A DNA stretch of 39,363 nt from a virus: IMG/VR virus record IMGVR_UViG_3300035156_000166, positions 1-39,363 of that record; one strand, given 5' to 3'. A model generated the notes under the pieces. That model worked only from the letters and a program-made list of their open reading frames with translations, was not told the DNA's origin and ran no database searches. Of this stretch, positions 1 to 39,363 are shown piece after piece. Numbering within the stretch: the first letter of the stretch is position 1; every line of letters starts with the position of its first letter. The position numbers and the translations under genes are program-made.

Positions 1-127
1 TGAACCGAGTAGTGGCGGTGTTCTGCGCGACCGGCGCGGTCATGTGGTTGATGCTTGCCGAGGAGAACTCGACCGCTGCCTTGCCGTTCGCCAGGAACGC
101 ACCGGTCGAGCGGTACGTCGGCTGCCG
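1..127. repeat. Left copy of 127-bp terminal direct repeat, identical to 39237-39363 (circular closure, assembler overlap or terminal redundancy)
   Basis: Read directly: the two strings are identical, and an ORF runs in frame across the junction. Offset is 39236. Confidence 0.95.
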
Positions 128-2341: not shown

Positions 2342-3373
2342 TCAGCGGTAGCTTCGGATCTTGGCTGTCACCTGATCGGCGTAGGGCTTGCGCCTGAAAT
2401 CGCTGTAGAGCCACCCGAAGCACAGCTCCCCATTGGTGGCGGAGACGCCGCGGTCGCGGAGCTGATAGAGCGTGGCGACGTACGGGTCCGCGCTCATCAC
2501 TGCGCTGATCTGTTGCACGATCGCGTTGCCGACGTCTGCGGGGGAGCCGTAGCCGCTGACCATCGGGAGGCCGAACTCGAGGATCCCGACCGGCTTGCCG
2601 TAGCGGGTCCGGAGTTCGCGCATCCCCTCCGCCATGATCCGCATAGCGGTCGCGTTCTTCTCCGGGTAGGCGTGCACGCACACGACGTCGAGCACGGGGA
2701 GCCCGTCGAAGAACGTCTTCCACCGGGCCACTCTGCCAGCGTCGACGGGGTAGCCGAAGGGCGTCGTGGTGATCTTGGCTGCCTCGAGACCGACCACGCC
2801 GCGGATCACGCCGCGGAGGTGGGTCAGGGAAGCGTTCATCCGGGCGAGGTAGGCCGTGTTGAAGTTGGTCCCGAGCGGGGCATGGTTGCGGTAGTCGCGC
2901 CCGTCGTGCTCGTTGTAGATCTGCCAGAGGTCGACGTGCTGCCCGATGTCCTCAGCGACCGCCCGGACGTATTGCCCGTTCGCCGCGTTGAATTGCGCCT
3001 CAGTCCAGGCGTCGGAGTTGTAGAGCGAGGCCATGACCAGCACGACCCGGATGCCGCTCGCCTTGATCTTCGCGAAGGCTTGCTTGTAGAAGGCCGCGAC
3101 CGCTGCGTTGCGTGTAAACGTGCTGCCGTTCGTCGAGCCGTAGACACCGATCGGGATATCGAAACGTCCCCACGTTGCGCCGGATGCCACGAGCTCAGCG
3201 AGATCCCGGTCGAAGGTCCCCTCGTTGACGAAGATCATCGCACCGAGCGCGCCAGCCGGAGGCGGGGGAGGTGGCGGTGGCGGGGGTGGGGGAGTGGTGA
3301 GCCTGTCGATCTCTGCCTGAAGCGCTGCGATCTTGTCGTCTGCCTGCTGGCCGAAGTCGGCGTAGGTTCCCAT
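2342..3373 (-). CDS. Clan GH-A (GH5-like) glycoside hydrolase with N-terminal coiled coil and poly-Pro linker; putative virion-associated depolymerase
   Basis: 343 aa. Motifs lie in TIM-barrel order: WQIYNEHD (acid/base NE), VCVHAYP (H-x-Y), GILEFGLP (nucleophile E). The N-terminus YADFGQQADDKIAALQAEIDRL is followed by 12 consecutive Pro. Confidence 0.6.
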   Translation of the reverse strand: MGTYADFGQQADDKIAALQAEIDRLTTPPPPPPPPPPPPAGALGAMIFVNEGTFDRDLAELVASGATWGRFDIPIGVYGSTNGSTFTRNAAVAAFYKQAFAKIKASGIRVVLVMASLYNSDAWTEAQFNAANGQYVRAVAEDIGQHVDLWQIYNEHDGRDYRNHAPLGTNFNTAYLARMNASLTHLRGVIRGVVGLEAAKITTTPFGYPVDAGRVARWKTFFDGLPVLDVVCVHAYPEKNATAMRIMAEGMRELRTRYGKPVGILEFGLPMVSGYGSPADVGNAIVQQISAVMSADPYVATLYQLRDRGVSATNGELCFGWLYSDFRRKPYADQVTAKIRSYR

Positions 3374-3399: not shown

Positions 3400-3428
3400 T
3401 TGACTCCGGCATCGCGCACGTGTAGAGT
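3400..3428 (+). promoter_or_regulatory. Sigma-70/SigA-type promoter TTGACT-N17-TAGAGT followed by the conserved CGTAGACA block
   Basis: -35 at 3400-3405, -10 at 3423-3428. The 18-mer CGTGTAGAGTCGTAGACA (3419-3436) is identical to 18643-18660 and 21503-21520. RBS agagaggag, then ATG 3459. Confidence 0.7.
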
Positions 3429-10661: not shown

Positions 10662-10690
10662 ACCCTACTACTCTCATAGATCTGTGTCAA
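10662..10690 (-). promoter_or_regulatory. Consensus promoter TTGACA-N17-TAGGGT placed 7 nt before ATG 10654 (leaderless type)
   Basis: Minus strand reads gagTTGACAcagatctatgagagtagTAGGGTagttcacATG. It lies at the 3' end of the upstream gene, with its -35 hexamer overlapping that gene's stop codon. Confidence 0.6.
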
Positions 10691-11172
10691 CTCTTGATTA
10701 GTGTCTTGAGCTCGTTAACTCCGGAGACCCGGACGGGTTCAGGCTTCTCGCTCGTGAAGCTGATCGTCTCATCGTTGAGATACCGGACGATCTTCCCCTT
10801 CTCGTCCCGCTCCACGTCGAGCACGTAGCGGGTGCGCTGCGTGGTGCTCCATGCGTTGTCCTTCGTCCACTTCCGCTCCACGCGATAGCCGCGCACGGTG
10901 GCCGTGTGGTGCCTGGTCCACCAGTACGCCGCGTCGGGCTTCCATGACGGCCCCGCCTTGCCTCCGAGCTCCGGGTCGAAGAGGTAGACCGCTAGGAACC
11001 GTTGCACATCTTCGCCAGCTCGCCGCCACCCTCGCACGATCCAAGACCTCGTTGTCCGTCCGTCGAACCATCCTTCGCCGTACGTCGCCACGGTCCACCA
11101 CCCCGCGTCGTCCGCCACCTGCGCCAGGCTGACCACGCCCCCCGGTGCACTTGGTGTAGTTGGTGTAGACAT
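10687..11172 (-). CDS. Hypothetical protein (Trp-rich); start uncertain
   Basis: ORF track, 161 aa. ATG 11172 and its RBS-like aggaaa lie inside the 102-bp repeat element, and codons 2-7 are the iteron arm. Confidence 0.55.
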   Translation of the reverse strand: MSTPTTPSAPGGVVSLAQVADDAGWWTVATYGEGWFDGRTTRSWIVRGWRRAGEDVQRFLAVYLFDPELGGKAGPSWKPDAAYWWTRHHTATVRGYRVERKWTKDNAWSTTQRTRYVLDVERDEKGKIVRYLNDETISFTSEKPEPVRVSGVNELKTLIKS

Positions 11173-11254
11173 TGAGCGTTTTCCTACTCTCTATATTTTA
11201 CACTTGCTAAGTTGCCTCAGTATGAATCGGACGAAAAACTACACCAACTACACC
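11153..11254. repeat. Copy 1 of the 102-bp AT-rich element: 16-bp inverted arms GGTGTAGTTGGTGTAG / CTACACCAACTACACC flanking a 70-bp core at about 37% GC
   Basis: 97 of 102 positions identical to 35265-35366 in the same orientation. Each arm is a tandem TTGGTGTAG-type 8-9 bp unit. Confidence 0.95.
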
Positions 11255-11257
11255 AAG

Positions 11258-11281
11258 TTATCCACATTTTCCTGTGGATAA
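11258..11281. promoter_or_regulatory. Inverted pair of perfect DnaA-box consensus 9-mers TTATCCACA-N6-TGTGGATAA (candidate origin element or hairpin)
   Basis: Read directly. Immediately follows the primase stop codon (11283-11285) and abuts repeat copy 1. Confidence 0.4.
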
Positions 11282-11282
11282 C

Positions 11283-13517
11283 TCACTCGTTAGGTAAGCC
11301 TAGGCTAAGTCCCCGAACTGCCGCCAGACCCCCGTACATGTAGCTGCTGTAGCCGAGCGCCTGCATCCTCTGCCACCACTTCGTCAGGGGCAGAGTGCCG
11401 TTGCCGGTCGCCTCAGTCCAGCGCTTGTAGTGGGTGTAAGCCTCTTTCTTCAGCATCCGGACGTCGATCCGGTCGGGGTCGCGAATGGCCAGCCGATCGT
11501 CCTCCGTGACCCACTCGCGCACCTGATCGGCTGCCAGCTCGAAGCGATCCTTCTCGTCCTGCGCCGACTTCGGGGTGTCGAAGTTGCCGCGCGCCATGAG
11601 CTCGCGAAGAGACCTGACCGCGTGCGCCAGGATGCCGGGGAGCTCAGACGTTAGGTCTTCACTCAGTCCCGCCTTTGTGTCGAAGGTGTTGGGGAACGTG
11701 AGGAGCTGCCAGCGCCGACGGTAGCCGTGCGTGGTGTCCGCGCTCTTCCAGAACTCGTTAGCCGAGAAGACCGGCACGGCCCAGCACGTGAACGCGAAGG
11801 GATGCTCGTACTTCCGCTGAGCCTCAATCGTGTCCTCGCCCGTGATCGCCTTAAAGCGAGCGGTCGACTTCATGTAGGCCGGGTCGATGTCGCCCGCGAG
11901 GTTCGCGATCTTGCCGAAGAGGGACGCGACTTCGAACTTCCCTTCAGCGATGTCCTGCAGGGTCACCTGAGACGTGTTCGACGCGCCGAGGAGAGCCTTG
12001 ATTACTCGGATCAGGGTCCCCTTCCCGTTGCTGCCCGCACCGTGGAAGAGGAACGCGCGCTGCAGCGGGTTCCCGGAGTAGGCCAGATAGCCGAGGATCT
12101 CCCAGAGATAGGCGTGCGCGTCGGGAGCCATGACCTGATCCACGAAGCGGTCGAAGAGCGGGCATACGGCATCCTCGTCCCACGTCACGGGAAGTTGCAC
12201 CGTGGAGTAGAACGAGGGATCGTGGGGGTAGAGCGTGCCGGTCTTCCAGAAGAGCATCCCGTTCAGGACGTTGAGGTACTCCGGCACCGGGTCGCACGTG
12301 ATGATCGCCCCGCGGCTGCGTAAGAGCTGCTGCAGCATCGGCAAGACGGTCGAGACGTGGGACGGTCGGAACTTGTGCCCGAGGAGGACCGTGCACCGGT
12401 CCGACACCTCGTGCGGAGCGCGGTGCCAGACGCCATTCCGGTACGACCAGATAGACCGGTTGTCGCTGTCATCCATAGCGAGGTCGCCCAGCTCGAGGAG
12501 GTCGAGCGCAAGCTTGGTGACGATGAGCCCGCCCTTGCCGCCGAAGTAGGCGTCGGGGTCGTAGATCTTCTCCGGATCTGCGACCCCCTCAGGGAAAGGG
12601 ACGAACATGCCGGTCTGGGCCCGTGGCATGGGTCGCCCTGCCCCGTTGACTTTCTTCCGCGCGGAGTCCCAGCGCTCGAGGATCTCGGCCAGACCGAATC
12701 CCGAGTCCCGCGGCGCGTGCTTCGCGAGGGTGTCGTAGGCGTCGCCTTCGGTGAGCGCGTTCCAGGGTGAGTACGCGATCTCGAGGAGGTTGCAGGCGAC
12801 CTCGTACGTCGTCGAGTTCCAGTCGGGCCCCGTGTAAACGTCCCGTCCGAAGTTGGACACCGCTGCCTGCGCGCACTCCCTGAGTCGCGCGACCTCGAGC
12901 TCGAAGACCGTCTCCGCGTAATGGTCGCACCGAGCCTTCTCTGCCTCGCTCATCGCGTCGCGGCTGACCACCTCCCGCGACGCCGAGGAGATCTCGACTT
13001 CCTTCGGCTGCAGCTTCTCGAGGAGCCATGCCGGGGCCGGAGCGACCTTGCCGCTCCACGTCGCCCCGCCCTCTGTGGGCAGAACCTCGTACGTGCCGAA
13101 GATCGTGCTCGAGGGTGCCGCGATGACGTAGCCACCGTCCCCGCGCACGTCGACGTGCGGGAAGAGCGACGTCGTGCTCCGCACTGGACCGGCAACCGAG
13201 AAGTAGTAGTGCGTCCCGCCGCGCCCGGTCTTGACCGTGTAGGTCCGTGGTAGGCCACCGTGGGAGCTGACGAACTCTCTCCACTCCGGCGCGCCCTGCT
13301 CGCTCTTGTAGGAATCGTCGTCGATCACCACGAGCCCGTTGCCGGTCGCGATCCCGATCAGGTCGTCCGGGTTCTCCGCCCAGTGGGTGCGGAGCTGGTC
13401 GACGTCGGTCGTGGCATCCTTGAATCCGTTGCGCGTCTTGGGTCGCTTCTGGTCGTCGCACGGGAAGACGGGCCAGCCACGGGATGCATAGTCGCACACG
13501 GCAGTGATGGGGTGCAC
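11283..13517 (-). CDS. Bifunctional DNA primase-polymerase / SF3 (D5/P4-type) helicase
   Basis: 744 aa. N-terminal prim-pol motifs: GWPVFPC, GLVVIDDD, GGTHYYF, VDVRGDGGYVIAAPS. Walker A GAGSNGKGT in the C-terminal half. RBS aggaga before GTG. Confidence 0.85.
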   Translation of the reverse strand: MHPITAVCDYASRGWPVFPCDDQKRPKTRNGFKDATTDVDQLRTHWAENPDDLIGIATGNGLVVIDDDSYKSEQGAPEWREFVSSHGGLPRTYTVKTGRGGTHYYFSVAGPVRSTTSLFPHVDVRGDGGYVIAAPSSTIFGTYEVLPTEGGATWSGKVAPAPAWLLEKLQPKEVEISSASREVVSRDAMSEAEKARCDHYAETVFELEVARLRECAQAAVSNFGRDVYTGPDWNSTTYEVACNLLEIAYSPWNALTEGDAYDTLAKHAPRDSGFGLAEILERWDSARKKVNGAGRPMPRAQTGMFVPFPEGVADPEKIYDPDAYFGGKGGLIVTKLALDLLELGDLAMDDSDNRSIWSYRNGVWHRAPHEVSDRCTVLLGHKFRPSHVSTVLPMLQQLLRSRGAIITCDPVPEYLNVLNGMLFWKTGTLYPHDPSFYSTVQLPVTWDEDAVCPLFDRFVDQVMAPDAHAYLWEILGYLAYSGNPLQRAFLFHGAGSNGKGTLIRVIKALLGASNTSQVTLQDIAEGKFEVASLFGKIANLAGDIDPAYMKSTARFKAITGEDTIEAQRKYEHPFAFTCWAVPVFSANEFWKSADTTHGYRRRWQLLTFPNTFDTKAGLSEDLTSELPGILAHAVRSLRELMARGNFDTPKSAQDEKDRFELAADQVREWVTEDDRLAIRDPDRIDVRMLKKEAYTHYKRWTEATGNGTLPLTKWWQRMQALGYSSYMYGGLAAVRGLSLGLPNE

Positions 13518-13546: not shown

Positions 13547-13555
13547 ACTATATCA
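13547..13555 (-). promoter_or_regulatory. Extended -10 like element TGaTATAGT upstream of the primase gene, next to degenerate iteron-like repeats (13556-13575)
   Basis: Minus strand reads ggTTGGTGCACTTGGTGTTGTGATATAGTgaaact. Confidence 0.35.
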
Positions 13556-13578
13556 CAACACCAAGTGCACCAACCGCC

Positions 13579-13815
13579 CTACTTGTCTCGAGCGAGCCCT
13601 TCCCGTAGGTAGCGGTAGATGAGCTCAGCGCGGGAGACCTCGAGCCGGAACGCGGTCGCGTCCAGCTCTTCGAGCTCGCGCGGCTTGACCGTCGTCGCGA
13701 CTTGCTTCGTCCGCGCATACGGTGCCGGGGTGACCGGAAGCGTCTCGGTCTTGTGCCCGTCGACGATCAGGTCGCCCACTGTGTCAGACATTTGTGATAC
13801 CTTTCTAGGAGTCAT
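13579..13815 (-). CDS. Ribbon-helix-helix (CopG/Arc-like) DNA-binding protein
   Basis: C-terminal KPRELEELDATAFRLEVSRAELIYRYLREGL fits an RHH pattern. First gene of the leftward unit. ATG 13815 lies 7 nt after a -10 box. Alternative starts are GTG 13821 and ATG 13791. Confidence 0.6.
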   Translation of the reverse strand: MTPRKVSQMSDTVGDLIVDGHKTETLPVTPAPYARTKQVATTVKPRELEELDATAFRLEVSRAELIYRYLREGLARDK

Positions 13816-15935: not shown

Positions 15936-16252
15936 GCGGCGGATCATACGACTACGCTTGTTTCGCTCGCGAGCTCGACGAGCTGTTAGGTCACGTGCAC
16001 AATCTCGAGGCACTGCGCGACCGCCTCGCCGGACTGCCCTACGCTCGTGCTGCCGCGGTCGAGACCGAGCGTCTGGTTGCGAAGCTCCGGAGCTGGGAAG
16101 TGCAAGCGCGCGTAGCTGCGGAGCGTCTCGGCCCCGTTTGGCACGCCGTCGAGTGGTGGGATTCGTGCGACTCCGGCGAGGATCGAGTGCGCGAGGCCGT
16201 CGAAAACTTCCTAGAGATTTCTCACGATTCTAGGTTGACTTCTGAGCCGTAG
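15932..16252 (+). CDS. Hypothetical protein
   Basis: ATGA overlap. 106 aa, in frame with track ORF 15641..16252. Confidence 0.55.
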   Translation: MSGGSYDYACFARELDELLGHVHNLEALRDRLAGLPYARAAAVETERLVAKLRSWEVQARVAAERLGPVWHAVEWWDSCDSGEDRVREAVENFLEISHDSRLTSEP

Positions 16253-16262
16253 GGTGTAGAGT
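16235..16262 (+). promoter_or_regulatory. Promoter TTGACT-N16-TAGAGT
   Basis: -35 at 16235-16240, -10 at 16257-16262. Overlaps the stop of the upstream gene. Member of the TAGAGT promoter family. Confidence 0.6.
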
Positions 16263-17041: not shown

Positions 17042-17145
17042 GGGAAGGTAGCTCAACGGCAGAGCAACGGGTGCACTCGAGCGGCAAAGGGTTGATCTCC
17101 GGAGCCGGTACACCGTAGTTGGAGGTTCGAATCCTCCCCTTTCCA
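17042..17145 (+). ncRNA. tRNA-like element (104 nt) with canonical acceptor, D and T arms but an expanded, non-canonical anticodon region
   Basis: Acceptor GGGAAGG/CCTTTCC. U8-A9. D arm GCTC-AACGGCA-GAGC. T arm GGAGG-TTCGAAT-CCTCC. Discriminator A. About 50 nt (17067-17116) stand where a 17-nt anticodon arm is expected. Confidence 0.55.
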
Positions 17146-18622: not shown

Positions 18623-18623
18623 C

Positions 18624-18652
18624 TTGCGCTGCGTGTGGATCTCGTGTAGAGT
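18624..18652 (+). promoter_or_regulatory. Promoter TTGCGC-N17-TAGAGT plus CGTAGACA block
   Basis: -10 at 18647-18652. The 18-mer is identical to the 3419 and 21503 copies. Confidence 0.65.
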
Positions 18653-18692
18653 CGTAGACAGAAAGCAAGACCTACACCACCAAGGAGACACC

Positions 18693-20483: not shown

Positions 20484-20667
20484 GCCGAGACGCCGCACCC
20501 ACCGTGCGGACTGTGCGGTGCACAATCTCGAGAGCTGCGACTGTGACCGGAGCGGGCCACGCGCGACGAGCGGTAACGAGTTCGGGCAGGCCGTCCTGCT
20601 GCTCGCTGCATTTATTGTCCTGCTGATTTTCGTCAACGTGTTGACACGGCTACTCCCTAGCCTGTAG
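20476..20667 (+). CDS. Small membrane-anchored protein (C-terminal TM)
   Basis: ATG 20476, in frame with the track ORF. Contains AVLLLAAFIVLLIFVNVLTRLL. Confidence 0.5.
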   Translation: MPEPRRRTHRADCAVHNLESCDCDRSGPRATSGNEFGQAVLLLAAFIVLLIFVNVLTRLLPSL

Positions 20668-20670
20668 AGT
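20641..20670 (+). promoter_or_regulatory. Promoter TTGACA-N18-TAGAGT plus CATAGACA block
   Basis: -35 at 20641-20646, -10 at 20665-20670. Confidence 0.65.
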
Positions 20671-21314: not shown

Positions 21315-21487
21315 AGAGCTGGACAGTAGCGGAGATCGAAGCCGCCCTCGAGGTACGCCGGGTGAGGTGCAAGCGAGCGCGTGCCCGTAACGACCGGCAG
21401 TCCGCACTGCTCGAGCTCGTCTACATCGATACCCTTCTCGAAATGCATACCGAAGCGATCGTGCGAGGTGGCCGCTCGAGGAGTTGA
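21311..21487 (+). CDS. Hypothetical protein (alternative start ATG 21266)
   Basis: GTGA overlap. In frame with track ORF 21146..21487. Confidence 0.4.
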   Translation: MKSWTVAEIEAALEVRRVRCKRARARNDRQSALLELVYIDTLLEMHTEAIVRGGRSRS

Positions 21488-21512
21488 CACGAGATCCGGA
21501 TACGTGTAGAGT
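21484..21512 (+). promoter_or_regulatory. Promoter TTGACA-N17-TAGAGT plus CGTAGACA block
   Basis: -35 at 21484-21489, -10 at 21507-21512. Confidence 0.7.
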
Positions 21513-30037: not shown

Positions 30038-33000
30038 TCAGCGCCTCATTCCGTCGATGGTTGCGCGGTACTCGCCCGCCTGGTCGATCTCGTCGGCGAT
30101 GATACGCCGGATGCCGCCCAGCTCAGGCCCGAGGTCGATATTGATGATGATCGGGGAACGGCCCACCGCGCCCGCGCCGGAGCTCGAGCTCGAGGGAGAC
30201 CCGCCCGTGGCGAACCTGCGCCCGGTGAAGAACTCCTTCGGGTACGCTCCCGCATTGATCCCGGCCATGATCTCGTCACCGAGGAGCTTCGACGTCCGAG
30301 CCTGAATGACCCACTCGTTCGCGGAGAGCCGAGCGTCGATCAGGTCGGAGGTGTCCCCGCCCGGACCGCGCACCTTGCCCGGAGATCCACCCGCGGCGAA
30401 TCCGGGCACCCCGTCGCCAGCTCGCCCGCCCGCCGCGGACTTTTTGACCGTCCGCACGGTGACCGTAACGGTCTTGCCCTGAATCCCGTTGATCGAGCTC
30501 TGCACGCCGCCCACGCCGGACTGCCGGACCGAGATCGTGACGGTCTTGCCCTTGATCCCGTTAATGTCGCCCTTCGTCTTGGAGACGCCCTTCGAGCCGA
30601 CCGTGACGGTAGCCTTCTGCCCCTTCGCCGCGCCCTTGACCTCTCCCTTGACCTTGGAGACGCCCTTCGCGTGCACGTCGACCGGAGCCTTCGCACCCTT
30701 CGCCGCGCCCTTCACGTCGGAGCGGACCTTCGGTACGCCCTTCGAGCCGACCGTGACGGTCGCCTTCGCGCCCTTCGCCGCGCTCTTGACGTCGGACTTC
30801 GCCTTGCCGGTGCCGCGGGTCTTGACGTCGACGTTCGCCGACCGACCCTTAGCTGCGTCTTTGACGTCCGACTTCGCCTTGCCGGTGCCGCGGGTCTTGA
30901 CGTCGACCGGTGCCTTGATCGGGTTGCCGAAGTAGTCGAGCTTCCCCTTCGCCAGCTTGTCGCCCTGCACGTTGACCGAGACCGGAGCCTTGATCGTTTT
31001 GCCGTACTGGTCGAGCTTCGGCTTCGCTCCGCCGTCGGTCACGGTCGGCACGACCGGGACTTTCTTCGGCTTGAGGAGGGTCAGGAGGTAGGCTTCCGCC
31101 GCTCCCGCCCCGCTCTTGTCGTAGATAGTCTGCAGTTTGATCTGCTGCGGCTCGGTCAGGCCGGAGAGGGCTTGCTTGTACTTCTCGACCTTCGCCTGCT
31201 GCAGCGCCATTCCCACGGCGTCGATCTTGGTCGACACCTTGTCGGGCACGAGCCCGTAGGCGTCGGCGAGCTTGTTTGCCTGCCCCTTCGTGAGACCGGC
31301 TGCGTCCGCTGCGGAGACGAAGGCGTCGCGGACTTTCTGAGTCGCGGCTGCCGCATCCTTCGAGCTGGCACCCTGAGCGACCAGAGACGCGACGTACGCC
31401 TTCCCGCTCGAGGCGAGCTGACCGATCGCCGCGCCCGCGTCGCGTTGCTTCTGCGTACCATCGGCGAGGAGCCCCGTGCTCTTACTGATCGCCAGCGAGT
31501 CGGCGGAGAGTGCGGTCTCGTGCTTTTTGGTGCTGAGAGCCGCCCCGTCAACGGCTGCCTCATACGCCGCGTGAGCCCCGGCCACCCCCTGAATCGCGTC
31601 GCCCGTGGCGAAGATCTTCTGCGAGAGGGCTTGGTTGTCGGCTGCGCTCCGGCGCGTCGTCTCGCCCAGAGCCGCCACTGCGGAGATCGAAGCGAGTACG
31701 GCTGCCTGCTGTTGCTTGTGCGCCTCGCTCTCCGCCCCGAGAGCGTCGGTGCCAGCGTCGACCGACTCCGCGTAGGTCTTGTAGGCTTCCTGCCCGGTCT
31801 TCAGCTCATCGTTGCCGCCCGCGATCGCCTCTTGGATCTTGACGACATCTTTCGCCGCGTCGGAGGTGGACCGCCCGAACTCGTCGGTCCCTCCGTAGGC
31901 TGCGTTCGTCGCGTCGGTGTACTTCGTCAGCGCATCGTTTACACGCGCTTGAGCGTCAGCGTTGCCGAGCGAGGCCGCGGTCAGGTCGCCGACGGAGATC
32001 CCGAGCTTGTTCGCGCTGTCAGCCGCCCCCGACTTCATAAGCGAGTCGGTGCGTTGCTTCGCGATGGACTGATCCAGCACGCCGTTGCTCGCGATGAGAG
32101 CCTGAGTGAAGCTGTCTTGCGACGCCTTCGCCGTGGCCGCGTTGCTCGCCCACTTGCCGATCAGGACTGCCGCGATCGAGATAGCTACACCGATCGCTCC
32201 GGCTGCCAGGACCGCCGTCCGCGCCCCGATACCAAGCTCGATGAAAGCGAGCTTCGCGGCGGAGGCTGCGCCCGCCAGCTTGAGGACCGCCCCGGTCGCC
32301 ACGAGAGCGATACCACCGATCGCCGCCACCTTCAGGAGCCCGCCCTGCACGCCTGCCGGGAGCCCTGAGAAGGCGTCGACGAGGTTCGTCACGCCCTGCA
32401 CGATCCCGCGGAGCGGGATCTGGCTCGAGGTCGCCGCCCCGATGAAAGCCGACTGCAGAGCCCCGCCGAGCTTCTCGACGTCGCCCTTCAGGTTGTCCAT
32501 CTTGGTTGCCGCGACTTCGGAGGCGTAGCCGCTGTCATTGACCGCTGCCGTCCACTTAGCGATCCCGGCCGCGCCGCCGCTGTAGAGCACCGTGGCCGCG
32601 GTGATGCTGTTCTTCCCGAAGATCCGGGCCAGAGCTGCGTCCCGCTCCGCCTGCCCGAGCCCGCCGAGCTTCGCCTCGAGCTCCCCTACGGCTGCCTCCA
32701 TACCGATGAACTGCCCGGAGGCGTCCCGGACGTTGATGCCGTACTTCTCGATCGTCTTCGCGCCAGCGCCCATCGGAGCGGTCAGGGAGACGATCATGGA
32801 CCGGAGGGAGGTGCCCGCCTGCTCACCCTTGATCCCCGCGTCTGCCAGTCCTGCCAGGGTGCCGACGGTCTGGTCGATGCTCATGTTCGCGCCGGAGGCC
32901 ACGGGACCGACGTACTTCAGGGCCCCGGCGAGATCCTGCACCTCGCCTTGAGCCTTACCAGCTCCCGCGGCGAGGAGGTCGGCTACGTGGCTAGCCTGCG

Positions 33001-34548: not shown

Positions 34549-35124
34549 TCAGGTGATGGTCGCCGTCGACTTCAGGATTGCCACGAAGGGCCGGACCGTC
34601 GAGCTGACAGGCTCGAGGGTGAAGCTCAGCGGCACCGTCGCCTTGTCCGCACCCTTGCGCCGCTGGATCGCGACCGCGCCCGTCTGCAGGCACTTCCGCC
34701 AGACCCACCGCTCGCTCTTGTCGTCGGCCTCCCACAGGACCGCAACGCGGGTCTCGGTGACGCCGAAGGCGAGCGGCTCCACCTTGTCGATCGCGGTCGC
34801 GCCGGTGCCGGAGGCCGTGATGGTCGCACCGTTGAGGGCCCGCTGCACGTTCGCCGCGGTGACCTCAGCAAGCGCCATTTCGAGGGTCATCTCCTGACCG
34901 GTCGCCACGCGAGCGATCGGGAGGAGCGACTCCGCAACTTCGACGCTCTCGTAGGAAGGCGTGAAGGTGAACGTGTGACCTTCCGCGGTCCAGCCTGCGT
35001 AGGTCCAGGCCACGCCGATTGCCGTAGTGAGGTCGGTCGGCTCGGTAGCGCCGACGGCACCGAAGTAGATCTTGCCGGGGCCGAGCTTGACGAATTGGGC
35101 ATCTGAGCCCGGAACGTAAGGCAT
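34549..35124 (-). CDS. Major tail protein
   Basis: 191 aa, upstream of the chaperones. Has its own upstream regulatory region. Confidence 0.8.
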   Translation of the reverse strand: MPYVPGSDAQFVKLGPGKIYFGAVGATEPTDLTTAIGVAWTYAGWTAEGHTFTFTPSYESVEVAESLLPIARVATGQEMTLEMALAEVTAANVQRALNGATITASGTGATAIDKVEPLAFGVTETRVAVLWEADDKSERWVWRKCLQTGAVAIQRRKGADKATVPLSFTLEPVSSTVRPFVAILKSTATIT

Positions 35125-35229: not shown

Positions 35230-35264
35230 TGCCCCACCTCTTGCCAACCACCGCTACCGACCCT

Positions 35265-35366
35265 GGTGTAGTTGGTGTAGCTTTCGAGCGTTTTCCTACT
35301 CTCTATATTTTACACTTGCTAAGTTGCCTCAGTATGAAACGGACGAAAAACTACACCAACTACACC
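35265..35366. repeat. Copy 2 of the 102-bp AT-rich element with 16-bp inverted iteron-like arms
   Basis: 97 of 102 identical to 11153-11254. Intergenic, between 35378..35770 and the major tail gene. Confidence 0.95.
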
Positions 35367-35377
35367 AACTTACACGG

Positions 35378-35770
35378 TTAAGGCGTGCGGGTCGCCGCGT
35401 TGACCGTGACGTCGACGATGTAGCGGCAGAGCTTCGACTCCGGCTCACGGAGGTAGAGGACGGCGATGTCCTGCACCGTGTAAACATGCGTGGTCGCGTC
35501 GAGCCACTTCCCGCCCAGGCCGTTGAGGTAGTCGAGAAGGGCGCGCTTGACGTCGGAAGCGTCCTCTTTCTTCGAGGCCCAGCAGTCGAACGAGATCCGG
35601 GGGAACTCGAGGAGCTCGTCGACGCCGCCGCCCACCTGAGACAGGGTGACCAGCGGGTAGGCCGGAGATCCCTCCGGGGTCGAGTAGAAGACCCTGCCCG
35701 CCAGCTTCTCCGGCGCGAGGTTCACCTTCATGTGCGACTTCAGCGCTTGCTCTACGTCCGCCGCCCTCAT
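35378..35770 (-). CDS. Tail terminator-like protein
   Basis: 130 aa, last connector gene before the major tail gene. Confidence 0.5.
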   Translation of the reverse strand: MRAADVEQALKSHMKVNLAPEKLAGRVFYSTPEGSPAYPLVTLSQVGGGVDELLEFPRISFDCWASKKEDASDVKRALLDYLNGLGGKWLDATTHVYTVQDIAVLYLREPESKLCRYIVDVTVNAATRTP

Positions 35771-37070: not shown

Positions 37071-37384
37071 AGTGCGACTCCCAACGGATAGACTTCGATG
37101 ATCTCGGTCGTCGTCCAGTCGAGCACGGTCGACCCGGACACCCTGACGCGGAGCTTGTAGTCCCCCGCGGTCGGGAAGAGCGTCGTGGGTGGCCACGCGA
37201 AGAGCGCCTTGCCGTCCTCACGCACGGAGAGGGTGCCGCCCGACGTCGAGACTGCCTGACCCTCCGGACTGACCAGCTCGAGAACGAGCTGCCCTTCATG
37301 CGGGGTGAGGTCGATCTGATCCCTGCCGTCGGTCACGGTGATGAGAAGAGCCTGCAGCGGGACAGATCCCACGGTGAGCTTCAC
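37067..37384 (-). CDS. Small beta-sandwich (Ig-like?) protein
   Basis: 105 aa, with an alternating beta-strand pattern. GTGA overlap with the giant ORF. Confidence 0.45.
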   Translation of the reverse strand: MKLTVGSVPLQALLITVTDGRDQIDLTPHEGQLVLELVSPEGQAVSTSGGTLSVREDGKALFAWPPTTLFPTAGDYKLRVRVSGSTVLDWTTTEIIEVYPLGVAL

Positions 37385-39363
37385 GATCGCCTCCTCCGGA
37401 AGTTAACGGCAGGCCGGTCGAGCTGCAACGTTATCTCGATCGTACCGCGTCTGCGGAAGATCACGGCGGGACGCTCGAGCGTGAGCGTGACGTCGATCGT
37501 GCCGCGAACGTCGCCCAGACCGACGCCCACGACGGACCAGAGACCGAGGCCGGAGCCGCTCGAGACCCTCGAGCCTTCGCCGGATCCGGTCAAGAGGATG
37601 ATCCCGGAGCCGTCGCCCTGCGGGATGGTGAGCACCGGAGCGGAGCCCGAGCCGGTGCTGGTGATGCTGACCACGGCGGAGCCCGAGCCGACGGAGCTCC
37701 GCGAGCCAAAGCCCGTGCCCGTGTAGCTGACCGTCCCGGTCGCCACGCCGAGCGGGACCTTGCTGCCGCTGCCCGTTCCCGAGACTGCCACGGTGCCCGA
37801 GCCGGAGCCCTGCCCGCCTGTCAGCGTCGGCGCGGTGCCGGACCCGCTGCCTTCTACCTGCAGGGTCGCGATCCCTGTCCCCTGAGCAAGCCTCGAGCCC
37901 GACCCGGCGCTCGAGAACTGTATCGCACCCGCCCCGTCGCCGCTCTTGAGGGTCGACCCTGCGCCAACTCCGGAGACCGCGACCGTGCCGCTGCCGCTGC
38001 CGGACCTCGAGGTGGTGCCAGTGCCGGAGCCGGAGACCGAGACCGTGCCCGTGCCGGAGCCGGAGCTGACGCCGACCGTCGGCGCGAAGCCGACGCCGGA
38101 GCCGGAGACCGCGACCGTGCCGACACCTGAGCCGGACTTGTCCGTGATGCCGTTGCCGGAGCCGACCACGGGCACAGAGCCCGTCCCTGAGCCCGCGGGC
38201 TGCTGAGATCCAGCACCCGAGCCGGAGACCGCTACAGCGCCCGCTCCCGCCCCGCTGCGCGCCGTTGTGCCGTCGCCGCTACCTGAGACCGCCCAGACGC
38301 CCGCGCCTGCGCCCTGAGCGATCCTCGCGCCGCTGCCGCTGCCTACGACAGAGACCGTGCCGGAGCCGTCGCCGTTCGGGACGCCGAGCACGGGTGCCGT
38401 GCCGGATCCAGCGCCGGTGACCGCGACCGTGCCCGCCCCGTCGCCTGTCGGTGCCTTGCTGCCGATGCCCGACCCGATGACCGCGACCGTGCCCGTGCCG
38501 GAGCCGGACCTCGAGGTGGTGCCAGCTCCCGATCCGGTGACGTCGACCGAGCCCGCGCCCTGCCCGCTCTTGACCGTCGACCCTGCGCCAGCTCCCGAGA
38601 CTGCCACGGTGCCCGTGCCGGAGCCCGTGTAAACGGTGCTGCCCGAACCTGAGCCGGAGACTGCGACCGTGCCGGTGCCCGACCCTGCCGGAGTGCGCGT
38701 GCCCGATCCGTCGCCAGAGATCGCTACGGTGCCGACGGCGGAGCCGCCAGCTACCCGCGTGCCCGACCCTGAGCCGGAGACCGCGACCGTGCCGGTGCCC
38801 GAGCCGGACTTGTCCGGAGTGCCGGAGAGGTAGTCAGCAACCGTGATGCCGTACTCATCGGAGAGGGCACTGTGAACAATGGCCCGGTCCCCAGCCGAGA
38901 GGACCGAGGAAAAGTCGACCACATCGCTGAGGTAGATGTTCGCGGGCTCGCCGCCGTCGGTCTTCGCGCCGAGGGTGAGCGAGGTCCCGGTCAGCGTGTG
39001 AGCCGTCGAGCTCGAGGCGTCGAGCGCTCCGTTGACGTAGATCGTGTTCGAGTTGGTCCCGTTGTCCGCGATGGTCAGGACGTACCACGTGTTGATCTGC
39101 GGGGTGAAGACACCGTTCGTCAGGAAGGTAACGTTCTGGACACCGGTACGGAAGCGCGGCGTGGCGTCGACGAGAGCCTGCAACAGCGAGGAAGTGACGT
39201 TCTGCGTCGCGCCCAGAGTCTTGAACCGCACCACCATGAACCGAGTAGTGGCGGTGTTCTGCGCGACCGGCGCGGTCATGTGGTTGATGCTTGCCGAGGA
39301 GAACTCGACCGCTGCCTTGCCGTTCGCCAGGAACGCACCGGTCGAGCGGTACGTCGGCTGCCG
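37381..39363 (-). CDS. C-terminal part of the wrap-around 991-aa ORF: second LamG-like domain plus 21 Gly/Ser-rich 20-aa units
   Basis: The track lists 37381..39279, but the frame stays open upstream to the window end and joins 1120->1. Confidence 0.8.
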   Translation of the reverse strand, partial: RQPTYRSTGAFLANGKAAVEFSSASINHMTAPVAQNTATTRFMVVRFKTLGATQNVTSSLLQALVDATPRFRTGVQNVTFLTNGVFTPQINTWYVLTIADNGTNSNTIYVNGALDASSSTAHTLTGTSLTLGAKTDGGEPANIYLSDVVDFSSVLSAGDRAIVHSALSDEYGITVADYLSGTPDKSGSGTGTVAVSGSGSGTRVAGGSAVGTVAISGDGSGTRTPAGSGTGTVAVSGSGSGSTVYTGSGTGTVAVSGAGAGSTVKSGQGAGSVDVTGSGAGTTSRSGSGTGTVAVIGSGIGSKAPTGDGAGTVAVTGAGSGTAPVLGVPNGDGSGTVSVVGSGSGARIAQGAGAGVWAVSGSGDGTTARSGAGAGAVAVSGSGAGSQQPAGSGTGSVPVVGSGNGITDKSGSGVGTVAVSGSGVGFAPTVGVSSGSGTGTVSVSGSGTGTTSRSGSGSGTVAVSGVGAGSTLKSGDGAGAIQFSSAGSGSRLAQGTGIATLQVEGSGSGTAPTLTGGQGSGSGTVAVSGTGSGSKVPLGVATGTVSYTGTGFGSRSSVGSGSAVVSITSTGSGSAPVLTIPQGDGSGIILLTGSGEGSRVSSGSGLGLWSVVGVGLGDVRGTIDVTLTLERPAVIFRRRGTIEITLQLDRPAVNFRRRRS
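37510..38800 (-). repeat. In-frame coding tandem repeat array (about 60-nt units) encoding GSGxGxVxVxGxGxG plus a 5-aa linker
   Basis: I counted 21 units in the protein. Every fourth or fifth linker is 9 aa (TAPVLGVPN, FAPTVGVSS, TAPTLTGGQ, SAPVLTIPQ). Confidence 0.8.
39237..39363. repeat. Right copy of the 127-bp terminal direct repeat
   Basis: Identical to 1-127. Confidence 0.95.

What the first reader, a model, noticed from the sequence alone, without database searches (positions are those of the whole stretch)
11153..11254. 102-bp AT-rich element with perfect 16-bp inverted iteron-like arms, present twice in the genome (copy 1)
The sequence GGTGTAGTTGGTGTAG, a 70-bp core and CTACACCAACTACACC occurs at 11153-11254 and again at 35265-35366 in the same orientation, with 97 of 102 positions identical.

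The core is about 37% GC in a roughly 66% GC genome. Each arm is two tandem TTGGTGTAG-type units. A third degenerate unit (GGTGCAC) precedes copy 1. Degenerate inverted units (CAACACCAAGTGCACCAACC, 13556-13575) lie just upstream of the primase gene.

Inverted iterons around an AT-rich spacer match the layout of a replication origin (binding sites plus an unwinding element). Alternatives are a large RNA hairpin or insulator, an ncRNA gene, or a MITE-like mobile element.

Other details:
- Both cores contain a degenerate copy of the dispersed motif (TTTTACAC).
- Both carry a short plus-strand ORF: MNRTKNYTNYTKLSTFSCG at 11222..11281 and MKRTKNYTNYTNLHG at 35334..35381.
- In copy 1, the RBS-like AGGAAA, the ATG and the first codons of gene 10687..11172 are supplied by the element.
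Basis: seen in the sequence. Interest (0 to 1): 0.85.

Follow-up and report, generated by a model that had tools for sequence, protein, structure and literature searches.

The report
Duplicated phage replication-origin cassette
The element is most likely this phage's replication origin, of a known design with initiator-binding repeats around an easily melted AT-rich centre, and the unusual part is a recent exact second copy among the tail genes.

Summary
Two about 105-bp elements (11151-11256 and 35264-35368) share 97 of 102 positions. Each has two inverted TTGGTGTAG units per side around a 70-bp core, and these cores are the two most AT-rich stretches of the genome.

Copy 1 starts 26 bp after the stop codon of a fused prim-pol/SF3-helicase gene. 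That protein's only match among solved structures is the SaPI5 PriRep primase-helicase. The layout matches the published staphylococcal island (SaPI) and pRN1 origins: downstream of the replication gene, at least two iterons per side pointing in opposite directions, AT-rich centre, about 100-nt stem-loop.

GTGTAG-type inverted double repeats occur in 30 viral contigs. In 9 of 17 distinct groups they lie within 155 bp after a DUF5906 helicase gene. A relative with a 56% identical primase has the same architecture at the same place with different repeats (GGGAGTC).

Copy 2 lies between the tail-terminator and major-tail-protein genes. It is identical in three independent assemblies of this phage but absent from all four relatives examined, so it is a lineage-specific ectopic duplicate. 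Whether it fires, acts as a fork barrier as proposed for SPP1 oriR, or is neutral is untested.

Verdict: a new member of a known kind, of moderate interest.

The parts
11151..11168 (+). Copy 1, left arm: two tandem TTGGTGTAG iterons with a 9-bp period
11169..11238 (.). Copy 1, 70-bp AT-rich core (37% GC), the presumed DNA-unwinding element
   Evidence: lowest-GC 70-bp window of the genome..
11239..11256 (-). Copy 1, right arm: two tandem TTGGTGTAG iterons in inverted orientation
11144..11150 (+). Degenerate third unit (GGTGCAC) outside the left arm of copy 1
11258..11281 (.). Perfect inverted pair of TTATCCACA (E. coli-type DnaA-box sequence) between the primase stop codon and copy 1. It forms a 13-bp RNA hairpin. 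It may be the terminator of the primase gene or a host DnaA site.
   Evidence: Not seen beside other GTGTAG elements. pRN1 has a putative terminator followed by its stem-loop origin.
11283..13517 (-). Fused prim-pol / D5_N / DUF5906 (SF3) helicase gene with a predicted C-terminal winged-helix domain, the presumed initiator
13556..13575 (-). Half-site of two degenerate units (GGTTGGTGCACTTGGTGTTG) between the RHH gene stop and the primase start, next to a TATAGT -10-like hexamer. Possibly an autoregulatory site.
13579..13791 (-). 70-aa CopG-like ribbon-helix-helix (RHH) candidate gene, first gene of the replication operon
   Evidence: RHH_1 at E 0.01, below the Pfam cutoff, and the same weak hit in relative L221.
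35264..35280 (+). Copy 2, left arm (CTGGTGTAG + TTGGTGTAG)
35281..35350 (.). Copy 2, 70-bp AT-rich core (39% GC). It differs from copy 1 by a 5-nt patch next to the arm (4 substitutions) and one further substitution.
35351..35368 (-). Copy 2, right arm: two TTGGTGTAG iterons in inverted orientation
10687..11172 (-). Gene downstream of copy 1. The candidate ATG start lies in the arm. The alternative GTG start is at 11136.

Best explanation
**Copy 1 (11151-11256) is the phage's origin of replication.**
- It is of the type used by self-loading primase-helicases such as SaPI Rep/PriRep, pRN1 ORF904 and P4 alpha.
- The initiator is the prim-pol/SF3-helicase encoded just upstream.
- Its C-terminal winged-helix domain is inferred to bind the four TTGGTGTAG iterons, two on each side pointing towards each other.
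- Two hexamers would then assemble on either side of the 70-bp AT-rich core and melt it, and the prim-pol domain would prime synthesis.
- The degenerate half-site in front of the primase gene would let the same binder, or the RHH protein, autoregulate the operon.

**Copy 2 (35264-35368) is a recent ectopic duplicate of this cassette.** It was inserted between the tail-terminator stop codon and the promoter/leader of the major-tail-protein gene. Its arms are identical, so it should be bound by the same protein. It could act as a second origin or as a bound roadblock, like SPP1 oriR.

**Shown here:** sequence anatomy, position, homology of the initiator, recurrence of the architecture, and absence of copy 2 in relatives.

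**Inferred:** protein binding, melting, origin firing, and any function of copy 2.
For: **Position and initiator**
- Copy 1 starts 26 bp after the stop of the Prim-Pol + D5_N + DUF5906 gene.
- The protein's only PDB match is SaPI5 PriRep, 7OLA/7OM0, E 9e-13.
- Its C-terminal 80 residues model with pLDDT above 95 as helix-helix-beta-hairpin. The nearest folds are winged-helix DNA binders (RFX DNA-binding domain, TM 0.64) and the ASFV PrimPol C-terminus.

**Published precedents**
- SaPI origins lie immediately downstream of rep. They have an AT-rich centre and at least two iterons on each side in opposite directions, bound by the Rep winged-helix domain (PMC9371898).
- The pRN1 origin is an about 100-nt stem-loop after a putative terminator, downstream of a CopG-like repressor + prim-pol/SF3 operon. 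It still works when moved elsewhere in the plasmid (PMC4234260).

**Sequence properties**
- The two cores are the most AT-rich windows of the genome.
- As single strands, both elements fold into 17-20-bp stems (z -4.8 to -6.8).

**Recurrence in other genomes**
- The pattern GTGTAGNNNGTGTAG-N55-85-CTACACNNNCTACAC hits 30 IMG/VR loci.
- In 9 of 17 distinct groups the element lies from a 5-bp overlap with the end of the ORF to 154 bp after the stop of a DUF5906/D5-type helicase gene.
- A Lachnospiraceae contig has nearly the same arms, an unrelated core of 17-19% GC, and extra direct iterons, 215 bp after a homologous helicase gene.
- Relative L222 (56% identical primase) has GGGAGTC/GACTCCC iterons with a 9-bp period around an AT-rich centre at the same position. 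L221 has AGGGCAGGGC repeats there.

**Copy 2**
- It is identical in three independent assemblies.
- It is absent upstream of the major-tail-protein gene in four relatives. One of these is the L222/L223 phage, which keeps the tail-terminator to major-tail-protein gene order with only a 92-bp spacer.
Against: - No binding, melting or replication data exist.
- Two relatives (L221, L222) have different iterons at the same position although their C-terminal domains are more similar to the window's. GTGTAG-associated helicases elsewhere share no detectable C-terminal similarity with it. The binder could therefore be another domain or another protein, for example the RHH.
- Some GTGTAG elements are not next to helicase genes. 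L183 lies between the small and large terminase genes, L184 is next to an integrase, and the GGGT subfamily has 2-3 copies per contig and a core that is not AT-rich.
- The fold match of the C-terminal domain is weak (E 0.017 at best).
- A 95% identical 70-bp core is more conservation than a DNA-unwinding element needs. I read this as recent duplication, but it could reflect another function of the core.
Confidence: 0.72

Rival explanations
1. Operator/promoter cassette. The 9-bp repeats would be arrays of binding sites for the small CopG-like RHH protein or another regulator, and the AT-rich core would carry a promoter. The two copies would control transcription of the downstream genes (gene 10687..11172 and the major tail protein gene), not replication.
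For: - RHH proteins typically bind short tandem or inverted repeats (general knowledge).
- An RHH-like gene heads the operon, and a degenerate half-site overlaps a TATAGT -10-like hexamer in front of the primase gene.
- Both copies lie upstream of genes on the transcribed strand.
- The core contains TANNNT-type hexamers and a near-copy of the dispersed GTTTACAC motif.
Against: - The sigma-70 scan finds no promoter in either copy.
- Relatives express their major tail protein gene without such a cassette.
- The factor that recurs next to GTGTAG elements across unrelated contigs is the helicase gene, not an RHH gene. L120 has an HTH gene upstream instead.
Confidence: 0.12
2. RNA-level element. 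In the long minus-strand transcripts the arms would form a 17-20-bp perfect stem. This would act as an RNase III processing site, an mRNA stabiliser or a transcriptional insulator between gene blocks.
For: - Strong predicted hairpins on both strands (-43 to -49 kcal/mol, z -4.8 to -6.1).
- Both copies are intergenic within one co-directional gene array.
Against: - No U-tract follows the stem on either strand, and the scan finds no terminator at either element.
- No Rfam family matches.
- Across distant phages the GTGTAG hexamer itself is conserved while the linker and core vary.
- Extra unpaired direct units occur outside the palindrome. This fits a protein-binding site, not a helix that only needs to be complementary.
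Confidence: 0.07
3. MITE-like non-autonomous transposable element with 17-20-bp terminal inverted repeats that has inserted twice, unrelated to replication.
For: - Sharp homology boundaries at the ends of the inverted repeats, with unrelated flanks.
- Copy 2 is an insertion relative to related phages.
- A size of about 105 bp is typical of MITEs.
Against: - No target-site duplication at either copy.
- The element with this core is found nowhere else: 0 hits in IMG/VR for the core or the full arms.
- The only hits in 185,579 species genomes and in JGI metagenomes have different cores and again sit next to a helicase gene.
- Copy 1 occupies the position where relatives have their own iteron origins.
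Confidence: 0.05

Closest known systems
SaPI / PICI replication origins with self-loading Rep or fused PriRep helicases (PMC9371898)
   Same: - The origin lies immediately 3' of the rep/pri-rep ORF.
- It has a central AT-rich region and at least two short iterons on each side pointing in opposite directions.
- The initiator is homologous: the only PDB match of the window protein is SaPI5 PriRep.
- A C-terminal winged-helix-like domain is predicted.
   Different: - The iterons are 9-bp-period TTGGTGTAG units rather than the penta- or hexanucleotides described for SaPIs.
- The carrier is a complete siphovirus-like phage genome of about 66% GC, not a satellite island.
- The whole cassette is present twice.
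- Binding has not been tested.
pRN1 replicon: orf56 (CopG-like) + orf904 (prim-pol/SF3/winged helix) + about 100-nt stem-loop origin; similar stem-loops 3' of the replication gene in Bordetella phages BIP-1/BPP-1 (PMC4234260)
   Same: - Same gene order: small RHH-like gene, prim-pol/SF3 helicase gene, short hairpin (putative terminator), then an about 100-nt stem-loop.
- The pRN1 stem-loop still supports replication when moved elsewhere. An ectopic copy such as copy 2 could therefore be active.
   Different: - pRN1 is an archaeal plasmid, and its origin was described as lacking typical iterons.
- Here the stem is made of repeated units.
- The RHH assignment is below the Pfam threshold.
Bacillus phage SPP1 oriL / oriR (PMC6316719)
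   Same: - Two similar origin sequences, each with repeats plus an AT-rich unwinding element, lie about 13-15 kb apart on the circular map (15.1 kb here).
- One is in the replication module and the other interrupts the late structural genes.
- Initiator bound at oriR is proposed to stall forks and trigger the theta-to-sigma switch.
   Different: - SPP1 uses gp38 + gp39 + a DnaB-type helicase and direct repeats. Here a prim-pol/SF3 helicase and inverted repeats are used.
- The second copy here is not conserved in relatives.
Satellite phage P4 ori and crr bound by the alpha primase-helicase (from my own knowledge; no paper retrieved)
   Same: - A multifunctional primase/SF3-helicase/winged-helix protein binds the same short repeats at two separate cis sites.
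- The P4 repeat TGTTCACC (reverse complement GGTGAACA) shares the GGTG start with GGTGTAG.
- Pseudomonas phage MR14 has GGTGACAA-type inverted pairs downstream of its primase gene.
   Different: - The P4 primase is a Toprim type.
- P4's crr is a required partner of different structure, not an exact copy of ori.
MITEs such as the Correia elements of Neisseria (from my own knowledge)
   Same: An about 100-bp element with terminal inverted repeats, lying in intergenic regions and able to form RNA hairpins.
   Different: - No target-site duplication.
- Only two copies, both in one phage.
- The arms are tandem repeat units shared with helicase-adjacent origins.

Membership tests
SaPI-type iteron origin of a self-loading (Pri)Rep helicase | The origin lies immediately downstream of the rep / pri-rep ORF | tested here: met
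   The primase-helicase stop codon is at 11283-11285 and the outer arm of copy 1 ends at 11256, a 26-bp gap. Copy 2 does not meet this.
SaPI-type iteron origin of a self-loading (Pri)Rep helicase | At least two iterons on each side of the centre, pointing in opposite directions | tested here: met
   Two TTGGTGTAG units on each side, inverted, in both copies.
SaPI-type iteron origin of a self-loading (Pri)Rep helicase | Central AT-rich region | tested here: met
   Cores are 37% and 39% GC against 65.3 +/- 5.8%, the two lowest 70-bp windows in the genome.
SaPI-type iteron origin of a self-loading (Pri)Rep helicase | The initiator is a Rep-type helicase homologous to SaPI Rep/PriRep | tested here: met
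   phmmer against the PDB gives only 7OLA/7OM0 (797-aa 'DNA primase'), E 8.9e-13, residues 411-614. I equate this entry with the fused SaPI5 PriRep of PMC9371898; the entry code was not confirmed in the text read. Pfam finds Prim-Pol, D5_N and DUF5906.
SaPI-type iteron origin of a self-loading (Pri)Rep helicase | C-terminal winged-helix domain that recognises the iterons | tested here: inconclusive
   The AlphaFold model of the last 160 residues has a helix-helix-beta-hairpin module with pLDDT above 95. The best Foldseek hits are winged-helix domains, but E is 0.017 or worse. Binding cannot be tested here.
SaPI-type iteron origin of a self-loading (Pri)Rep helicase | The initiator binds and melts the origin, and the origin supports replication | not testable with these tools
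   Needs EMSA or footprinting, and plasmid replication or marker-frequency assays.
pRN1-type replicon | Operon of a CopG-like RHH repressor followed by a prim-pol/SF3 helicase replication protein | tested here: inconclusive
   The prim-pol/SF3 part is clear. The 70-aa upstream protein hits RHH_1 only at E 0.01, 16.2 bits against a cutoff of 20.5. L221 gives the same weak hit and L222 a weak NikA-like hit.
pRN1-type replicon | About 100-nt stem-loop downstream of the replication gene, preceded by a putative terminator | tested here: met
   A 13-bp hairpin at 11258-11283 is followed by a 110-nt stem-loop with a 20-bp perfect stem.
MITE (miniature inverted-repeat transposable element) | Terminal inverted repeats | tested here: met
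   17-20-bp perfect inverted ends.
MITE (miniature inverted-repeat transposable element) | Target-site duplication flanking each copy | tested here: not met
   The flanks are GCACT/AGTTA for copy 1 and GACCC/ACTTA for copy 2, with no direct repeat.
MITE (miniature inverted-repeat transposable element) | Multiple dispersed copies in host or other genomes | tested here: not met
   No hit for the core or the full arms in IMG/VR. One hit in the species genomes and six metagenome loci, all with other cores: L120 and three relatives beside a helicase gene, the rest 9-bp satellite-like arrays. Caveat: the window's own contig is not in these collections.
Two-origin phage replicon (SPP1 oriL/oriR type) | Two similar repeat + AT-rich origin sequences far apart, one within the late genes | tested here: met
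   The copies are 24,112 bp apart one way and 15,124 bp the other way on the 39,236-bp circle. Copy 2 lies between the tail terminator and major tail protein genes.
Two-origin phage replicon (SPP1 oriL/oriR type) | gp38-type origin binder with helicase loader and DnaB-type helicase | tested here: not met
   The replication protein next to the origin is a prim-pol/SF3 helicase. Not every ORF in the genome was scanned.
Intrinsic terminator / described RNA family | GC-rich stem followed by a U-tract, or a match to an Rfam model | tested here: not met
   No terminator-like site at either element and no Rfam match at E <= 1.

The most novel reading that the evidence does not exclude
Origin cassettes bounded by initiator-binding repeats may behave as duplicative, position-independent modules. 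On this reading, the copy in the tail-gene region is a functional second initiator-binding site. It would act as an extra origin, or as a programmed fork barrier that triggers the switch to concatemer synthesis, as proposed for SPP1 oriR. GTGTAG-armed palindromic elements found at other sites would belong to the same class of dispersed origin-like elements in viral genomes. These include the subfamily with 2-3 copies per contig and the element between the terminase genes in L183.
Probability: 0.2. Interest if true: 0.65.

Novelty: new member of a known kind. Interest (0 to 1): 0.4.

Why it matters
- **Annotation.** It gives a well-supported origin call for an uncultured, probably actinobacterial, phage.
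- **A reusable signature.** GTGTAG double inverted repeats around an AT-rich core, just after a DUF5906/prim-pol helicase gene, recur from 36% to 66% GC genomes. This signature could be used to find origins of this replicon type in metagenomic viruses.
- **A natural experiment.** Origin cassettes of this type tolerate relocation in pRN1. The exact ectopic duplicate here lets one ask what a second initiator-binding site does inside a late operon: extra origin, fork barrier, or effect on tail-gene expression.
- **Limit.** It is not a new kind of system.

Tried and rejected
- **BLAST of copy 1 and flank against 50,697 phage records:** no match.
- **Exact 16-mer arm search in IMG/VR:** more than 119 unrelated single hits, uninformative.
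- **Single-unit inverted pattern (TTGGTGTAG-N60-90-CTACACCAA):** 61 loci, nearly all chance single units. Only L122, L162 and L164 looked real.
- **Protein-based locus search with the primase in IMG/VR:** nothing.
- **Domain-swap test.** I asked whether helicases associated with GTGTAG share a distinctive C-terminal domain that would explain the shared repeat. They do not.
- **DnaA boxes as a general feature of these origins:** rejected, since only the window has them.
- **Second iteron cluster in relative L222/L223:** none in the 36.5 kb of the 40.6-kb contig that was retrieved.
- **PHROG annotation of neighbours of the multi-copy GGGT subfamily:** no hits.
- **Literature searches:** nothing for GTGTAG iterons or for P4 ori/crr.
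- **First scan of the RHH used the wrong ORF** (13548..13718). It was redone on 13579..13791.
- **Rejected readings:** the short plus-strand ORFs, whose YTNYT residues simply translate the arms, and an ncRNA gene.
Full report
**1.

- The window is a 39,363-bp contig whose first and last 127 bases are identical. It is therefore a circularly assembled genome of 39,236 bp, about 65% GC.
- Positions 11153-11254 and 35265-35366 match at 97 of 102 positions. The 16-bp arms are perfect inverted repeats.
- Homology spans 109 nt (family D10), and the flanks are unrelated.
- The perfect palindrome is 20 bp in copy 1 and 17 bp in copy 2.
- Each arm is two tandem TTGGTGTAG units. With up to one mismatch, this 9-mer occurs 14 times against 2.2 expected, and 8 of those lie in the two elements.
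- The 70-bp cores are 37% and 39% GC. They are the two most AT-rich 70-bp windows of the genome, about 5 SD below the mean.
- Copy 2 is identical in three independent assemblies (ENA, JGI, Logan) and copy 1 in a fourth contig. Neither is an assembly artefact.

**2. Genomic context**

- Codon-position GC content and family searches give one long minus-strand gene array. It runs from 13.8 kb down through the contig junction to 21.9 kb. An 8-kb plus-strand block covers 13.9-21.8 kb.
- The minus-strand array starts with a 70-aa CopG-like RHH candidate at 13579..13791. It gives sub-threshold RHH_1 hits here and in a relative.
- Next comes a 744-aa protein with Prim-Pol, D5_N and DUF5906 domains at 11283..13517.
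- Copy 1 starts 26 bp after the stop codon of that gene. The gap holds a perfect inverted pair of TTATCCACA that folds into a 13-bp hairpin.
- A degenerate half-site lies between the RHH stop and the primase start, beside a TATAGT hexamer. It shares the exact 14-mer GGTGCACTTGGTGT with the flank of copy 1.
- Copy 2 lies between the tail-terminator gene (35378..35770) and the major-tail-protein gene (34549..35124).
- The portal and a terminase-like gene are at 5.5-8.5 kb.
- A relative carries a WhiB gene. With the high GC content, this suggests an actinobacterial host.

**3. Comparative evidence for what copy 1 is**

*The initiator*
- The only solved structure matching the primase-helicase is 7OLA/7OM0, E 9e-13. 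I take this to be the fused SaPI5 PriRep.
- A model of the C-terminal 160 residues shows a confident helix-helix-beta-hairpin module. Its best structural neighbours are winged-helix DNA-binding domains and the C-terminus of ASFV PrimPol, but with weak E-values.

*Published origins of this replicon type*
- SaPI origins lie immediately downstream of rep. They have an AT-rich centre and at least two iterons on each side pointing in opposite directions. The Rep winged-helix domain recognises the iterons, and two hexamers are thought to self-load (PMC9371898).
- The pRN1 minimal replicon is orf56 (repressor) + orf904 (prim-pol/SF3/winged helix), plus a putative terminator and a 100-nt stem-loop downstream. 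The stem-loop still works when moved. Similar stem-loops follow the replication gene in Bordetella phages (PMC4234260).
- Copy 1 fits both descriptions feature by feature.

*The same arms elsewhere*
- A search of 185,579 species genomes for the arms with any core found one locus, L120. It is a Lachnospiraceae contig.
- There, GTGTAGTTGGTGTAG ... CTACACCAACTAC flank an unrelated 17-19% GC core, 215 bp after a homologous helicase gene. Homology is 28% identity over 302 aa, E 2e-26. Seven further direct GGTGTAG-type units lie in between.
- The generalised pattern GTGTAGNNNGTGTAG-N55-85-CTACACNNNCTACAC found 30 IMG/VR loci. I estimate far less than one hit by chance for 24 specified bases.
- These loci fall into 17 distinct groups. 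Most cores are AT-rich relative to their contig.
- In 9 groups (L182, L187, L194, L195/L198, L196, L199, L202, L205, L211) the element lies from a 5-bp overlap with the end of the ORF (L196) to 154 bp after the stop of a D5/DUF5906 helicase gene. L164 shows the same arrangement.
- A region of that size is about 2% of a 10-kb locus, so this association is far beyond chance.

*Relatives of this phage*
- L222 (56% identical primase) has two GGGAGTC units, an AT-rich centre of about 65 bp, and then GACTCCC units with a 9-bp period at the same position.
- L221 (61% identical primase) has AGGGCAGGGCAGGGC repeats there.
- S. thermophilus phage 858 and Pseudomonas phage MR14 also have repeat-flanked AT-rich regions after their primase-helicase genes, with other repeat sequences.
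- The architecture and its position are therefore conserved, while the repeat sequence varies. That is what one expects of an initiator-specific origin.

**4. What copy 2 is**

- Relatives with 70-84% identical major tail proteins have only 92-121 bp upstream of that gene. There is no AT-rich island and there are no repeats.
- In L223, which is the same phage as L222, the tail-terminator homologue (39% identity) directly precedes the major-tail-protein gene. The phage's own GGGAGTC iterons cluster only at the primase-adjacent origin.
- Copy 2 is therefore a lineage-specific insertion, placed 9 bp after the tail-terminator stop codon. It sits upstream of a TAGACT-containing leader that relatives also have.
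- The cores of GTGTAG elements in different phages are unrelated. I take the 95% identity of the two cores here to reflect recent duplication rather than constraint.
- The copies differ by a 5-nt patch next to the arm (4 substitutions: ACATT versus CTTTC) and one further substitution. In copy 1 the patch creates the ATG at 11172.
- No target-site duplication is present.
- The arms are identical, so whatever binds copy 1 should bind copy 2.
- Precedents are SPP1 and pRN1. In SPP1, oriR interrupts the late genes and initiator bound there is proposed to stall forks (PMC6316719). In pRN1, the origin tolerates relocation.
- Function of copy 2 is inferred only.

**5. Rival explanations**

- *RNA hairpin.* Stable stems are predicted. 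However, there is no U-tract or terminator call and no Rfam match. Conservation of the hexamer itself, together with unpaired extra units in other loci, points to a protein site.
- *MITE.* It fails on target-site duplication and on copy number elsewhere.
- *Operator or promoter for the RHH protein.* This cannot be excluded and may coexist with origin function. The recurring neighbour across unrelated contigs is the helicase gene, though, and no sigma-70 promoter is detected.
- *Caveat on the binder.* Sequence comparison of the C-terminal domains does not explain why distant helicases share GTGTAG while closer relatives do not. The identity of the binding domain therefore remains open.

**6.

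- The short plus-strand ORFs simply translate the arms (YTNYT) and have no support.
- The ATG at 11172 has a reasonable AGGA 9 nt upstream. Its first 11 codons are AT-rich at the third position, unlike the genome as a whole.
- JGI's gene call starts at the GTG at 11136. A weak homologue has an N-terminal extension of similar length. The start codon is undecided.

**7. Verdict**

- Copy 1 is very probably the replication origin of a pRN1/SaPI/P4-like prim-pol-helicase replicon. This makes it a new member of a known kind.
- Copy 2 is a recent ectopic duplicate of unknown consequence. It is the only unusual aspect.
- The GTGTAG iteron family is widespread, and I found no description of it in the searchable literature.

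Noticed in passing
window 3112, 5505, 12832, 14386, 20361, 21006, 22573, 24393, 25490, 26612, 29202, 31937, 35221, 35478, 38627: The dispersed motif (C)GTTTACAC(G) has 15 exact copies against 0.14 expected, on both strands and in coding as well as intergenic DNA. Three intergenic copies sit 4-5 nt from a TAGAC(T)-like hexamer. The motif is absent from all related phage loci examined, so it is specific to this lineage. Its function is unknown.
   Followed up: partly
window 11258-11281: A perfect inverted pair of TTATCCACA, the E. coli-type DnaA-box consensus, lies between the primase stop codon and copy 1. These are the only two matches in the genome. The pair could be the terminator of the primase gene or a host DnaA site. 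It is not found beside other GTGTAG elements.
   Followed up: partly
window 17042-17145 (+): Rfam finds a tRNA (52.8 bits, E 1e-8) with 42 nt where the model has 9 in the anticodon-loop region. This implies an insertion or intron of about 33 nt. ARAGORN does not call it.
   Followed up: partly
window 2554-2642 (-): ARAGORN calls an 89-nt tRNA-Arg(CCG) inside the well-supported coding ORF 2342..3373. Rfam does not confirm it, so it is probably a false positive.
   Followed up: no
window 3400-3428, 20641-20670, 21484-21512; similar at about 16226-16262 and 18623-18661 (+ strand): Repeated early-promoter-like sites of the form TTGAC(A/T)-N17-18-(C/G)TGTAGAGT, followed by TAGACAA. Three are exact pattern matches against 0 expected. 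Their -10 region contains the hexamer GTGTAG, the same as the iteron core.
   Followed up: partly
window 1-127 and 39237-39363: An exact 127-bp terminal direct repeat. It most likely reflects the assembler's overlap on a circular contig rather than a biological terminal repeat.
   Followed up: no
window 37550-38830 and 273-381; 30578-30871: Repeats with a 60-nt period, rich in G and C, lie within the 632-aa gene 37381..39279(-). Repeats with a 75-nt period lie in the 1249-aa tape-measure gene.
   Followed up: no
L191, L197, L200, L201, L204, L206, L208, L209 (IMG/VR): A subfamily of 98-bp palindromic elements has GTGTAGGGTGTGTAGGGT arms and a conserved core that is not AT-rich. It has 2-3 copies per contig, in either core orientation. 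One copy lies 319-957 bp upstream of a helicase gene. Six neighbouring ORFs scanned against Pfam or PHROGs gave no significant match.
   Followed up: partly
L215, L216, L218 (JGI metagenome Ga0126336): Long inverted arrays of 9-bp GTGTAGnnn repeats, up to about 25 units per arm, on short contigs of 41-45% GC. Their origin is unknown.
   Followed up: no
L183 1198-1306; L184 10746-10840: GTGTAG-type inverted double-repeat elements also occur away from helicase genes. One lies between the small and large terminase genes (L183). Another is 70 bp upstream of an integrase gene (L184/L190).
   Followed up: partly
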